A stretch of 64,000 nt of DNA from a virus, in UHGV virus genome UHGV-1366603, one strand, 5' to 3'. Positions 1 through 3,000 of the stretch are shown here, piece after piece. The position numbers are program-made. Positions within the stretch are counted from its first letter, which is position 1; each line of letters opens with the position of its first letter.

Positions 1-3000
1 TTGATAACGATCCTTTAGCGATAGGAATTATGTTAGACCTTGCTATCAATAAAGACGAGATAGCGTGGTGAAAAAAAAAGAAAGCTACTCCGACCCCAGA
101 AGGGTCGGAGTAAGCTCGAATTATTTTTTTTTTGCTATTTAGAGAGTTTCATCGGTGTTTTCGTCTGTACCGGTATCCGTCTCGTCCGTGCCTTCAGTTG
201 AAACGTCTTCTTCCGTTGTCGTATCGGTTTCTGTCGTTTCATCATCGGTCATGTCCAAGTCTTCATCACCGCCCAGATCGTCACCACCTAAGTCCTCATC
301 GCCTCCTAAGCCACCGTCATCTTCAGTGCCGCCACCAAAGTCGCTACCACCGCCGAAGTTATTGGCGTCTTCAGGATTCAGATCGGCTGCTTTTGCTAAC
401 GTCTGAACTTTACCTGTCGCACGTTTTGCTAACTGAATCAGCGTCTTCGATGCCGCTGCAATTTCATCAGAAATCATCTTGACGTTTTCACCACGTTTAT
501 CTTCATCGTAGATCAAATCAAACAGATCGGTTTCGATGCCCTGATTACGTAGCCAGTTGCGCGCGTAGAAGGTCTTAACCATCGTCTTGAGGTCATCAGG
601 TGACATTTCAATACCTTCGTTCTGAAGCATATTAGCAATGTCATCCGTGACCACCAGATCTGCAAGTTTCTCGATAAATTCATAGCGTTTATCGAAGAGA
701 TCAGCTTGAGATGCTGTTGCAGAAGTATCGGGCGGCGGCAAGGTGACCTTCATACCGTTGATAAACTTCGCCATATACTCTGACGTTTGTTTTGTCATCT
801 CTTCGCTAGTTACATTCGGATTCTGCTCACGGATATACTCAACGATAATACGGATGAGTTCTGCTTGCAGTTTCGGTGAAGCTTGCAGACTGTTTGTAAC
901 GTAGCGCGTAAGCGGGGTTGAGAGAATTTCCTGTTTCTTCACAATCTGTTGAGTAACCAACAGCGATTTAGAATAAATCTGAGAAGCAAACTCCAGGTTC
1001 TCCGGGGTAAGTACAAGGTCAGGATCAACACACGCGATGTGACATGTACGGCGTAACAGGTTCTCGTCGATTTGTTGATCAGGAACTTTATACTCCGGCG
1101 TGGTATCAGACACAGACACTTTGTGGCTGGCGTAGTAATCGTTACCCGTTACGTTAAAGGCAATCCCCGCATTAGCCCCCATTGACCAGGCGTCGTTGAT
1201 ATCGCCCCACATCGGCAGACGTCGATTGTAGGAGTTAAGGATATCTGATTTAACTTGGTCAACGGTTTTCTGACCGTTTGCATCATCTGGTGACAGCTCA
1301 ATGTCATACTGCATGTGACGTGCCGAGTTCAGTACAGATGAGTTCATCGTTGCGAACAGCAGCGCCATCCTGACAGTAGAGATAATAAAGGAGCGTTCAG
1401 TAATAGAAACCCCGATACCGTCCTCGTTAAAGTCCGTTGCAAAATAGCATAGGTTATTAACCGGAATGTAAACCACCTGAGTATGACGTTTTGCGAGATG
1501 ACGCGCCAACAGAATACGACCGAATGTTTCGGTAATATTCATGCTGATTTCTGCGCCACCTAGTGCCTGACTTAATGCGCGAGCAAATTCGTTTTCAGCG
1601 ATTTCACCACAACGTGCACTTAAACGGTTGGCGATTTCCGGGGTAATACGAGAAGTGTTCCCTAAGCCCAGATTAGAACGGTTAATGATGCTGTCCGTCA
1701 TCCCGTCGTTATTCAGGTAGTTCATAAAGTTCGCATCGCCGTACAGCGAGGAGCGAGCATTGATGAAGTTACCCATGTCATCTACGATGGTCAGATAACC
1801 AATAGGGTTACGAACGTCATCGCCAATTACCAGTGGCAGCGTTGACTCTGCGGGCAGTAAACGTTCGATGTATTCGATTTTGTTATTCTCATCCATTGAG
1901 ATAATAGGAATATCACCGTACGTTTGTGTTTTCGGTGTTGACTTATACGCCTCGTTTAAATCGCCCAAGTTAATGAACCCTTTTTCAGCAGCGTCACGCT
2001 GACGGTCATCGAAAGATTGGTTAGGGTCGAACGGACTGCCACCGTTTGGTGTAGACGGCTTTTCATATGCGGCTTGCTCTAATTGCCCGTACAATCCCGT
2101 ACGTGCGTTCTCATGCGCGATACGACGATACAAATCCGGCAGCATGGTAATGCGTGGGTTATCGGTAATCGTGATTTCCATCTGGAATTTATCCGAGAAC
2201 ATCGAATCATGCTTACCGAAATCGATTTTCAACGTTTGAGGACCAGTAACGGCTCCGTGTAAACGGTTGAGAATTGATTCTACACCAACTCGCTGCCCTT
2301 CTTTCGGCGCATTAATAGGCCCGAGAATACCAAGCTGTTGTTCGAAGAACGCCGTTTGAGAACGACGAACAGATTCAGTAGCGACCTTTGTATTCAGGCC
2401 GAATAATTGGTCGAAGCCGGTATCCGAGATTATCATCACTGGACTTGCGCCTTTGGTTTTTAACGCATCGTAAATCCACTGATATAATTTCTTAGGTAGC
2501 TGACGAATGTTATCGTGATAATCACGGGTCGGTGTCAGTAGCGCGTTACGCAGATCAATGGGGATGTCCGCGATGTTGTCGTAAATCAACGTCGTGTTGA
2601 TTAAGTCTTTTGTTGATAGCAGGCTCGAAGTTGCAATAGTAACGATTGTTTCGAGTTCAGGTAACGCATCAAAGATACGTTCCGCATTTTTGATAGTACG
2701 AATACGTGAACTCGCAATTGCCGTGAGTTCTTGACGTGTTGGCGTAGAACCACCCTCGCTACGCGTACCGCGTTGTTGCTGAGGTGCTGGGCCCGTAGTT
2801 TTACGAAGAATTGCAGCTACGGCGGGGTCGCCCGTTAATTTACTAATATCGTCCATTGGGGTCTCCGATGCAGAGATTTAACATATTTCGTGAACAGAAC
2901 ATCGCGTTGGCGAAATCACTGATTATTAAATCAGAATCAATCGCACAACAGATGAATCTGGCAATAACCGAGAACGGCGGTTTCGTTTCCGATAACCGAA

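What the first reader, a model, noticed from the sequence alone, without database searches (positions are those of the whole stretch)
2854..2870. Divergent large genes with start codons only 12 bp apart
The 905-aa minus-strand gene starts at 2856 and the 727-aa plus-strand gene at 2868, so neither can have a promoter in the intergenic space; each promoter must lie inside the other gene, or one or both starts are misassigned. The 905-aa gene is also the sole minus-strand gene in the first 46 kb and ends in its own terminator.
Basis: seen in the sequence. Interest (0 to 1): 0.35.

Follow-up and report, generated by a model that had tools for sequence, protein, structure and literature searches.

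The report
Back-to-back portal and baseplate genes
Two essential virion genes of a giant phage, the portal gene and a baseplate-wedge gene, start 11 bp apart on opposite strands; that gap holds only their two ribosome-binding sites, so each promoter must sit inside the other gene, an arrangement shared by the whole phiKZ-like family and therefore ordinary for these phages.

Summary
A 905-aa minus-strand gene starts at 2856 and a 727-aa plus-strand gene at 2868, with an 11-bp gap (TGGGGTCTCCG).

- **Identity.** The window is a SPN3US/phiEaH2-like jumbo phage. The genes are homologues of the phiKZ portal (gp129) and baseplate-wedge protein (gp128).
- **Starts.** Both are right. The N-termini are conserved from residue 1 in nine relatives, and each gene has a normal Shine-Dalgarno (SD) site.
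- **Gap.** It is two SD sites laid back to back: GGGGT for gp128 and GGAGA for the portal.
- **Conservation.** The head-to-head pair occurs in every phiKZ-like genus examined, with gaps of 11-88 bp by annotated starts (one 172-bp annotation looks too long).
- **Promoters.** Published TSS mapping in phiKZ puts the portal's late promoter (TATG) about 70 nt inside gp128.
- **This clade.** Portal codons 1-10 have the strongest synonymous constraint of the gene (0.88 vs 0.50; rank 1 of 853). Two inward-pointing TATGs are invariant: G+1 at 3120 (minus) and 2069 (plus).

Exact TSSs in this phage remain unmapped. This is a new member of a known kind, of low-to-moderate interest.

The parts
139..2856 (-). 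Portal gene (905 aa), homologue of phiKZ gp129 and the SPN3US-type 'portal protein'; the only minus-strand gene in the first 46 kb
   Evidence: ORF. phrog_3004 'head and packaging', 1028 bits. PDB 9xpe_M PHIKZ129, E=1e-42. Ortholog annotated 'portal protein' in Proteus phage 7. phiKZ gp129 is the dodecameric portal (PMC13250141).
2868..5051 (+). Baseplate-wedge gene (727 aa), homologue of phiKZ gp128; first gene of a long rightward block of virion genes
   Evidence: phrog_3222, 940 bits. PDB 9xqs_C PHIKZ128, E=2e-81, aligned from residue 4. gp128 is the baseplate-wedge subunit in the phiKZ atlas. tblastn finds it in 290 phage records.
2857..2867 (.). 11-bp spacer TGGGGTCTCCG made of two back-to-back ribosome-binding sites with two-fold symmetry about T2862
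   Evidence: Sequence. Invariant in six distinct genomes and extended to 12-15 bp in others.
2858..2862 (+). SD of the gp128 homologue (GGGGU), 5-nt spacer to ATG 2868
   Evidence: Duplex with the anti-SD is -5.4 kcal/mol; window genes average -6.1 and random 20-mers -2.2.
2862..2866 (-). SD of the portal gene (GGAGA), 5-nt spacer (CCCCA) to ATG 2856
   Evidence: Duplex with the anti-SD is -6.6 kcal/mol. GGAGA is kept in all nine clade members.
2821..2856 (.). Portal codons 1-12, a block with frozen synonymous sites lying directly upstream of gp128. It is a candidate proximal promoter and/or leader of the gp128 mRNA and contains TAATTTAC (2836-2843), which resembles the phiKZ middle-promoter motif AAanTTACc
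   Evidence: Synonymous-codon identity is 0.88 against a gene mean of 0.50, rank 1 of 853 windows, and 0.84, rank 1 of 820, with 7 genomes. The first 10 codons of five control genes score 0.24-0.53. There is a sharp boundary after codon 12. The block is not conserved in the most distant clade members (L017, L018, L094).
3120..3123 (-). Minus-strand TATG (G+1 at 3120; context GAGGTCTTTTTATGACGG), a candidate phiKZ-type late promoter for the portal gene, giving a 264-nt leader antisense to gp128 codons 1-85
   Evidence: Present in the same alignment column in all 9 clade genomes plus 4 further IMG/VR loci (about three additional lineages). It shares TTTTATGA with the mapped phiKZ portal promoter P070. 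It lies next to the most synonymously constrained stretch of gp128, codons 69-88.
2882..2885 (-). Second minus-strand TATG (G+1 at 2882, 26-nt leader), an alternative proximal portal promoter
   Evidence: Present only in the window, its 94% relative, phiEaH2 and the Asesino-like contig. SPN3US has AATG, and it is absent further out.
2063..2071 (+). TTCATATGC, a plus-strand TATG (G+1 at 2069) inside the portal gene pointing towards gp128, 799 nt upstream of its ATG. It is a candidate distal late promoter or antisense-RNA start. CATATG is palindromic, so a sense-direction start is also possible
   Evidence: Portal codons 262-264 (GCA TAT GAA) have all synonymous sites identical in 8 of 9 genomes, and the ninth keeps TATG. 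It is kept in the four extra loci. It lies in a local peak of synonymous constraint, the windows at codons 259-260.
85..113 (.). Hairpin terminator shared by the portal gene (minus) and the preceding plus-strand gene, flanked by an A-run and a T-run
   Evidence: (13 pairs, 7 GC, tail CTTTCTTTTT) and the sequence. Annotated terminators sit at the same place in Moabite and Miami. phiKZ has T060/T059 after its portal gene.

Best explanation
This is the conserved head-to-head junction between the portal gene and the baseplate-wedge gene (phiKZ gp129 and gp128 homologues) of a SPN3US/phiEaH2-like, phiKZ-related jumbo phage. Both annotated starts are real.

The 11-bp gap is the shortest layout that still gives each gene a ribosome-binding site. 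GGGGU plus a 5-nt spacer serves gp128, and GGAGA plus a 5-nt spacer on the other strand serves the portal. Each SD is encoded by the complement of the other gene's spacer.

No transcript can start in the gap and still carry its SD. Each mRNA must therefore start inside the partner's coding sequence, and the two mRNAs have complementary 5' leaders.

By inference from relatives, transcription is by the phage's own non-virion RNA polymerase. Its late promoters need little more than TATG at the start site, so they can be written into coding sequence.

Shown: gene identities, correct starts, SDs, family-wide conservation, synonymous constraint on portal codons 1-12, two invariant inward-pointing TATGs, and a mapped intragenic portal TSS in phiKZ.

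Inferred: the actual TSSs here. The best candidates are G+1 at 3120 for the portal (alternatively 2882). For gp128 they are either the constrained block 2821-2856 or the TATG at 2069.
For: - **Identity.** (PHROG and PDB hits to PHIKZ129 and PHIKZ128; roles in the phiKZ structure; closest genomes and their annotation).
- **Starts.** (N-termini conserved from Met1; SD energies).
- **Conservation of the pair.** The gap is 11 bp in phiEaH2, SPN3US type and pEa_29. It is 12-15 bp in Wellington and in the Machina-, Caitlin- and Derbicus-like phages. It is 20-26 bp in Joad, USC-1, HHBS47_1, Miami and PS2. It is 32 bp in RAY, 35 in phiKZ, 53 in Moabite and 88 in RP12.
- **Embedded promoter shown by experiment in phiKZ.** TU100 runs from TSS 130258 (P070, 'late promoter'...AAATTTTATGA) and covers PHIKZ129 only. 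The PHIKZ128 CDS is 128154..130328 (minus) and PHIKZ129 starts at 130364. The TSS is therefore about 70 nt inside gp128 and the leader is 106 nt.
- **Constraint.** Portal codons 1-10 score 0.88 (rank 1 of 853) and control genes do not.
- **TATG.** TATG is the top 4-mer of 256 by the fraction of its antisense occurrences that are invariant: 2 of 7 against a background of 1.6% (binomial p=0.005 for this pre-specified motif). None of the 13 sense TATGs is invariant.
- **Isolation.** The hairpin at 85-113 isolates the pair from upstream plus-strand transcription.
- **No sigma-70 signal.** Sigma-70-like sites number 7 against 8.5 expected.
Against: - No TSS data exist for this phage or its clade.
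- The invariant TATG at 3120 depends on only one synonymous site (His CAT) within the conserved HKKTSN motif, so protein constraint could explain most of it.
- CATATG at 2066-2071 is palindromic, so its strand of action is ambiguous.
- Leaders of 264 and 799 nt would be long.
- The constrained block in portal codons 1-12 is not kept in the most distant clade members (L017, L018, L094). It could equally reflect requirements of the portal's own translation start.
- The TTAC match to the phiKZ middle motif is post hoc. At the published -24 spacing it would put the TSS at about 2864, too close to the ATG to include the SD.
- The phiKZ dataset lists no TSS for PHIKZ128, so the gp128 side has no experimental precedent.
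- RNA polymerase genes are not in this window; use of the non-virion polymerase is inferred from relatedness.
Confidence: 0.8

Rival explanations
1. Proximal-promoter version. Both promoters sit within about 40 bp of the junction and give short leaders of 10-30 nt. The gp128 promoter would be the AT-rich TAATTTACTAATAT block in portal codons 3-8. The portal promoter would be the TATG at 2885-2882. The invariant TATGs at 3120 and 2069 would then be by-products of protein conservation or unrelated internal starts.
For: The strongest nucleotide-level constraint of either gene lies exactly here. TTAC or TTACC lies within 90 nt upstream of the gp128 ATG in 10 and 6 of 13 genus-level lineages (p about 0.003-0.004), against 1 and 0 of 13 on the portal side. 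In Moabite a TATG sits in the gap 35 nt before the portal ATG.
Against: The TATG at 2882 is missing in SPN3US and in all more distant clade members. The TTAC block is lost in L017, L018 and L094. gp128 codons 1-10 show no unusual synonymous constraint (0.52-0.58; rank 148 of 695). The mapped phiKZ portal leader is 106 nt, not short.
Confidence: 0.35
2. One or both start codons are misassigned, and the true intergenic region is larger.
For: Only the general rarity of an 11-bp divergent gap, and an alternative TTG at 2856 listed for the plus ORF.
Against: Both N-termini are conserved from residue 1 across nine genomes, with synonymous-type substitutions in codons 2-10 of gp128 in distant members. 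ATG 2856 is the most upstream start in its ORF. Both genes have normal SDs at 5-nt spacing. Independent annotators place the starts the same way in more than 15 genomes. PHIKZ128 aligns from residue 4.
Confidence: 0.03
3. gp128 has no promoter of its own. It is expressed by read-through from the upstream plus-strand genes, with transcription running antisense across the whole portal gene.
For: The plus strand is the coding strand on both sides of the portal gene. No gp128 TSS is listed for phiKZ.
Against: A 13-bp hairpin flanked by an A-run and a T-run sits between the upstream gene and the portal 3' end. Terminators are annotated or mapped at the same spot in Moabite, Miami and phiKZ. A 2.7-kb antisense read-through of an essential late gene would be costly. 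The conserved plus-strand TATG at 2069 and the constrained block at 2821-2856 suggest internal starts instead.
Confidence: 0.07
4. A single symmetric bidirectional promoter in the gap gives two leaderless or near-leaderless mRNAs.
For: The junction CATTGGGGTCTCCGATG is a 12-of-17 quasi-palindrome (and my own comparison). At the published -24 spacing, a phiKZ-middle-type TTAC would predict a plus-strand TSS near 2864.
Against: The symmetry is what two opposed SD+ATG units produce by themselves. Both SDs are conserved and of normal strength, which would be pointless on leaderless mRNAs. There is no AT-rich melting region in the gap, and relatives stretch the gap to 88 bp without keeping any common core.
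Confidence: 0.03

Closest known systems
phiKZ PHIKZ128/PHIKZ129 junction with late promoter P070 (Putzeys et al., ONT-cappable-seq; bioRxiv 10.1101/2023.10.13.562163, Tables S3/S5)
   Same: The genes are orthologous and have the same head-to-head orientation. The portal is a single inverted gene followed by a terminator. The portal promoter (TATG) is embedded in the gp128 coding sequence, and the window's conserved site shares TTTTATGA with P070.
   Different: The gap is 35 bp in phiKZ and 11 bp here. The phiKZ TSS is 72 nt into gp128 (codon 24), whereas the conserved TATG here is 253 nt in (codon 85), so the position is not homologous. No TSS has been measured for this clade.
phiKZ-type late promoters of the non-virion RNA polymerase (Ceyssens 2014; Yakunina 2015, PMC4666361; review PMC7598289; structure PMC12809450)
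   Same: A minimal TATG element at the start site with no -35/-10 boxes explains how promoters can be written into coding sequence. Both candidate sites here have a T-rich stretch before the TATG, as do P070 and P071.
   Different: Recognition by this phage's polymerase is untested. In phiKZ, TATG is necessary but not sufficient, and the extra determinants are undefined, so the sites cannot be validated by sequence.
Face-to-face promoters with overlapping 5' transcripts: IS10 pIN/pOUT and coliphage 186 pR/pL
   Same: Two promoters fire towards each other, so the 5' ends of the two RNAs are complementary. In IS10 the overlap covers the SD and AUG. Here any leaders must be complementary across both SDs.
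   Different: Those systems are switches in which one RNA or promoter represses the other. Here both products are essential virion proteins that, by analogy with phiKZ, would be made late together, and no interference or antisense control has been shown.
Symmetric bidirectional bacterial promoters (Warman et al. 2021; from my own knowledge)
   Same: Divergent transcription from one very compact region.
   Different: Those promoters share a -10 element and fire outwards with TSSs about 18 bp apart. Here outward firing from the gap would lose both SDs, and host sigma-70 polymerase is not expected to transcribe these genes.

Membership tests
Chimalliviridae (phiKZ-like) portal / gp128 head-to-head gene pair | Minus-strand gene is a homologue of the phiKZ gp129 portal | tested here: met
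   PDB 9xpe_M PHIKZ129, E=1e-42. phrog_3004, 1028 bits. Ortholog annotated as portal.
Chimalliviridae (phiKZ-like) portal / gp128 head-to-head gene pair | Plus-strand gene is a homologue of the phiKZ gp128 baseplate-wedge protein | tested here: met
   PDB 9xqs_C PHIKZ128, E=2e-81 over residues 4-637. Its role is taken from PMC13250141.
Chimalliviridae (phiKZ-like) portal / gp128 head-to-head gene pair | Divergent orientation with a short gap, and the portal as a lone inverted gene followed by a terminator | tested here: met
   Same layout in 18 or more genomes from more than 15 genera, with gaps of 11-88 bp. Terminator.
phiKZ-type late promoter (non-virion RNA polymerase) | TATG with the G as transcription start | tested here: inconclusive
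   Conserved inward-pointing TATGs lie at 3123-3120 (minus) and 2066-2069 (plus). The start site itself is unmeasured, and part of the conservation can be explained by protein constraint.
phiKZ-type late promoter (non-virion RNA polymerase) | Transcript 5' end mapped at the motif | not testable with these tools
   This is available only for the phiKZ ortholog (P070 at 130258). No transcriptome of a SPN3US- or phiEaH2-type phage was found.
phiKZ-type late promoter (non-virion RNA polymerase) | The phage encodes the multisubunit non-virion RNA polymerase | not tested
   No RNA polymerase gene was looked for beyond the large ORFs of the window, which are tail and virion proteins. It is inferred from about 73% DNA identity to phiEaH2 and Asesino. 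SPN3US virion-polymerase subunits are mentioned in PMC7598289, and Asesino is described as nucleus-forming (PMC11724907, listed).
phiKZ middle promoter (AAanTTACc centred near -24) | Motif at the right distance upstream of a TSS that precedes the SD | tested here: inconclusive
   TAATTTAC at 2836-2843 matches 6 of 7 specified positions. TTAC(C) is enriched upstream of gp128 across genera. The -24 spacing would place the TSS near 2864, after the SD, and the motif is lost in three clade lineages.
Sigma-70 promoter pair | -35/-10 hexamers near the junction in excess of chance | tested here: not met
   7 sites in 1-6000 against 8.5 +/- 2.7 in shuffles. The nearest plus-strand sites end at 2488 and 2640, and no site lies within 200 bp of the junction on either strand.
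Structured RNA element or known RNA family at the junction | Stable or covarying structure, or an Rfam match | tested here: not met
   There is no Rfam hit in the window. Leader folds are no more stable than shuffles, with z from -0.2 to +1.6. RNAalifold finds only 6-bp hairpins implied by the SD/ATG symmetry, with no compensatory changes in them.

The most novel reading that the evidence does not exclude
The portal and baseplate-wedge genes would be driven by two face-to-face late promoters about 1 kb apart, plus-strand TATG at 2069 and minus-strand TATG at 3120, each buried in the partner gene. The two essential mRNAs would then carry about 1050 nt of perfectly complementary 5' sequence covering both ribosome-binding sites. 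Collision of polymerases or pairing of the leaders would couple or balance head and tail gene expression. This would be a conserved regulatory module of the SPN3US supergroup, with a shorter version in phiKZ.
Probability: 0.12. Interest if true: 0.5.

Novelty: new member of a known kind. Interest (0 to 1): 0.22.

Why it matters
It gives a clean example of how far a phage that brings its own promoter-minimal RNA polymerase can compress divergent genes. The intergenic region shrinks to two interlocked ribosome-binding sites, and the promoters move into coding sequence, where they leave a measurable footprint at synonymous sites.

Practically, it flags positions that must not be recoded when engineering these phages: portal codons 1-12, CAT at 3120-3122 and GCATATGAA at 2063-2071. 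It also warns that amber or knock-out constructs in the 5' part of either gene may be polar on the other. It does not change the current understanding of phiKZ-like transcription.

Tried and rejected
- **Sigma-70 scan.** No excess of sites and none near the junction.
- **Repeated motifs in the window.** TTTACTAATAT, TGGGGTCTCC and TACTGTGAG occur at chance frequency.
- **AT-rich TTTAC-type words.** They are enriched in non-coding DNA on both strands, so they are uninformative. AAnTTAC lies 8-60 nt upstream of starts 5 times against 1.6 expected, which is too few to use.
- **Early-promoter class.** The window has three copies of TCAGATATATATTACCTAG (about 15187, 36316, 40371). The junction does not match it.
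- **RNA structure.** Rfam finds nothing. The leaders are no more stable than shuffles. The small hairpins (CAUUGG/CCGAUG and UCUCUG/CGGAGA) follow from the opposed SD/ATG layout.
- **TATG at 2885-2882.** It was first taken as the portal promoter and then downgraded because it is absent from SPN3US and more distant relatives.
- **Literature.** Ceyssens 2014 is not held. The supplements of the journal versions of Putzeys 2024, the 201phi2-1 paper and Wicke 2020 are not held. The bioRxiv supplement of Putzeys et al. supplied the phiKZ TSS.
- **15-mer scan of IMG/VR.** It gave 99 stretches, of which only 12 were true junctions.
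Full report
**Observation**

The sequence shows CAT at 2854-2856 and ATG at 2868-2870, separated by TGGGGTCTCCG. The minus-strand ORF 139..2856 encodes 905 aa. The plus-strand ORF from ATG 2868 to 5051 encodes 727 aa.

The portal-side claims also hold.
- Every other minus-strand ORF of at least 100 aa before 46 kb is nested in a plus-strand ORF.
- The larger gaps checked (18.9-24.7 kb) are filled by small plus-strand ORFs.
- A 13-bp hairpin at 113..85 with a T-rich tail follows the portal stop. It is flanked by an A-run and a T-run, so it can serve both strands.

**What the genes are**

The first 6 kb matches Erwinia phage phiEaH2, Stratton, Asesino, Caitlin and Salmonella phage SPN3US-type genomes at about 71-75% identity. 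A 100% identical IMG/VR contig exists. The window therefore comes from an undescribed member of the SPN3US/phiEaH2 group of phiKZ-related jumbo phages.

- The 905-aa protein matches phrog_3004 and the solved PHIKZ129 portal chain (E=1e-42). Its ortholog is annotated 'portal protein'.
- The 727-aa protein matches the solved PHIKZ128 chain (E=2e-81, residues 4-637). The phiKZ structural atlas assigns that protein to the baseplate wedge (PMC13250141).
- Both genes lacked transposon insertions in phiKZ and are therefore considered essential (PMC12676376).
- Pfam has no model for either protein.

**Are the starts right?**

Yes, on four lines of evidence.
- In nine distinct clade genomes the proteins begin MQRFNIF(R/V).. 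and M(D/E/S)(D/E).., conserved from residue 1.
- In the more distant members, gp128 codons 2-7 differ only synonymously (CAG/CAA, AGA/AGG, TTT/TTC, AAC/AAT), so the region is translated.
- ATG 2856 is the most upstream start of its ORF.
- The TTG at 2856 that the ORF listing offers for the plus ORF is not conserved.

Each gene also has a normal SD.
- GGGGU (2858-2862) pairs with the anti-SD at -5.4 kcal/mol.
- GGAGA (2866 to 2862 on the minus strand) pairs at -6.6 kcal/mol.
- Across 59 genes of the window the mean is -6.1, and for random 20-mers it is -2.2.
- Both SDs have a 5-nt spacer, and they share base pair 2862.

The 11-bp gap is thus two SD-plus-spacer units fully interleaved on opposite strands, the shortest arrangement that keeps both.

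**Conservation**

The 11-mer is identical in six distinct genomes whose flanks have diverged. Gap lengths by annotated starts are:

| Gap | Phages |
|---|---|
| 11 bp | window, phiEaH2, SPN3US type, pEa_SNUABM_29 |
| 12-15 bp | Wellington; Machina-, Caitlin- and Derbicus-like phages; one further IMG/VR lineage |
| 20-26 bp | Joad, USC-1, HHBS47_1, Miami, PS2 |
| 32 bp | RAY |
| 35 bp | phiKZ |
| 53 bp | Moabite |
| 88 bp | RP12 |

In every case the portal is a lone inverted gene between plus-strand genes. gp128 homologues are found in 290 phage records. This is an old, family-wide architecture, and the window's clade carries its most compressed form.

**Where are the promoters?**

Host-type promoters are not indicated: sigma-70-like sites number 7 against 8.5 expected, and none is near the junction.

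[quoted passage not shown] Its late promoters show only a TATG with the G as +1, and there is no upstream consensus (PMC7598289, PMC4666361, PMC12809450).

The decisive external datum is the ONT-cappable-seq map of phiKZ.
- Promoter P070 is classed as late, with sequence ...CATCAAATTTTATGA and a TSS at 130258.
- It starts TU100, which contains only PHIKZ129.
- The PHIKZ128 CDS runs 128154..130328 on the opposite strand, and PHIKZ129 starts at 130364.
- The portal mRNA therefore starts about 70 nt inside gp128 and has a 106-nt leader antisense to it.
- No TSS is listed for PHIKZ128.

**Footprints in this clade**

I made codon alignments of both genes from nine genomes. Among sequence pairs with the same amino acid at a column, I scored how often the codon was also identical.

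- Portal codons 1-10 score 0.88 against 0.50 for the gene, the highest of 853 windows. With seven genomes the score is 0.84, rank 1 of 820.
- The first ten codons of five neighbouring genes score 0.24-0.53, so this is not a general 5'-end effect.
- The frozen block ends sharply after codon 12. It spans 2821-2856, the sequence directly upstream of gp128.
- gp128 codons 1-10 are not exceptional (0.52-0.58).
- The block weakens in the three most distant lineages.

I then searched for the phiKZ late motif.
- A minus-strand TATG with G+1 at window 3120 (GAGGTCTTTTTATGACGG; gp128 codons 84-86) sits in the same alignment column in all nine genomes and in four further IMG/VR loci, about three additional lineages.
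- A plus-strand TATG with G+1 at 2069 lies in TTCATATGC. Three adjacent synonymous sites of portal codons 262-264 are frozen there, and it is equally conserved.
- Only 80 of 4890 four-mer positions are invariant in the two genes.
- TATG ranks first of 256 four-mers for the fraction of antisense copies that are invariant: 2 of 7, p=0.005 for this pre-specified motif. None of the 13 sense copies is invariant.
- Both sites point towards the junction and sit at or next to local maxima of synonymous constraint.

There are caveats. The 3120 site needs only His=CAT inside a conserved HKKTSN motif. CATATG is palindromic. The implied leaders (264 and 799 nt) are long. A nearer minus-strand TATG (G+1 at 2882, 26-nt leader) exists only in the window's closest relatives.

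TTAC or TTACC, the core of the phiKZ middle-promoter motif, lies within 90 nt upstream of gp128 in 10 and 6 of 13 genus-level lineages. On the portal side the counts are 1 and 0. This was noticed post hoc, and its spacing here fits poorly.

**Mechanism**

Most likely (about 0.8), both starts are correct, the gap is purely translational signal, and each gene is transcribed from a promoter embedded in its partner. The two mRNAs then have complementary 5' leaders.

Which embedded sites are used is unresolved. I hold the distal TATG pair and the proximal block/TATG as comparably likely for now.

Read-through from upstream is unlikely because of the 85-113 hairpin. A leaderless bidirectional promoter in the gap is unlikely because both SDs are conserved.

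No special RNA structure is present. There is no Rfam hit, fold energies equal those of shuffles, and only small hairpins implied by the SD/ATG symmetry appear.

**Comparison and novelty**

The closest known case is the orthologous phiKZ junction itself. The differences are the gap (11 vs 35 bp), the position of the candidate portal promoter, and the absence of data for this clade. Mechanistically it resembles face-to-face promoter pairs such as IS10 pIN/pOUT or coliphage 186 pR/pL (from my own knowledge), but no regulatory interplay is shown.

I rate it a new member of a known kind. Interest is 0.22.

The most novel reading not excluded is kilobase-scale complementary leaders coupling portal and baseplate expression. 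I give it about 0.12 probability.

Noticed in passing
window 15170-15205, 36300-36335, 40355-40390 (+): There are three near-identical copies of TTTCAGATA(T/G)ATATTACCTAG(G/A)(T/G)GAGAG in gaps after terminators. They resemble the AT-rich phiKZ early-promoter consensus (TATATTAC) and are likely virion-polymerase early promoters of this phage.
   Followed up: partly
window 5032-5586 (+): The longest ORF starts at TTG 5032 and overlaps the end of gp128. Orthologs start MGYRIDL/MAYRVDL, so the real start is ATG 5059, 7 nt after the gp128 stop. The protein carries DUF7941.
   Followed up: yes
window 2042-2069 (+) and 3151-3120 (-): Each conserved inward-pointing TATG is immediately preceded by a terminator-like hairpin and a T-rich run (CCGTTTGGTGTAGACGG-CTTTTCATATG and TTCGAACGAAATACGTTTGAG-GTCTTTTTATG). 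The hairpin sequences vary among relatives, so their significance is unclear.
   Followed up: partly
window 55500-60683 (-) and 60778-63951 (-): Two adjacent giant minus-strand genes (1727 and 1057 aa) hit overlapping PHROG families (phrog_7449, 8078, 7557). They appear to be paralogous virion proteins.
   Followed up: no
window 29120-33643 (+): The 1507-aa protein hits 56 different tail-fibre PHROG families in separate segments, which suggests a mosaic tail fibre. It starts at a TTG.
   Followed up: no
window 19853-20170 (+) vs 19859-20167 (-): Two almost coextensive ORFs (105 aa plus, 102 aa minus) lie on opposite strands. The plus ORF has an SD-like GAGGAAAC upstream and is probably the real gene.
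   Followed up: no
L025 (phiKZ) 132129 (+), from the supplement of 10.1101/2023.10.13.562163: phiKZ has a second late promoter (P071, ...CATTTTCATCTATGG) inside its portal gene in the sense direction. It gives a 970-nt unit with no annotated gene. Its core resembles the window's CTTTTCATATG at 2059-2069, which lies on the strand antisense to the portal.
   Followed up: partly
L024 (Halocynthia phage JM-2012) 3278-3451: The annotated gap is 172 bp, but the tblastn match to gp128 starts at 3301 with query residue 3. The annotated gp128 start is therefore probably too far downstream, and the true gap is roughly 16 bp.
   Followed up: no
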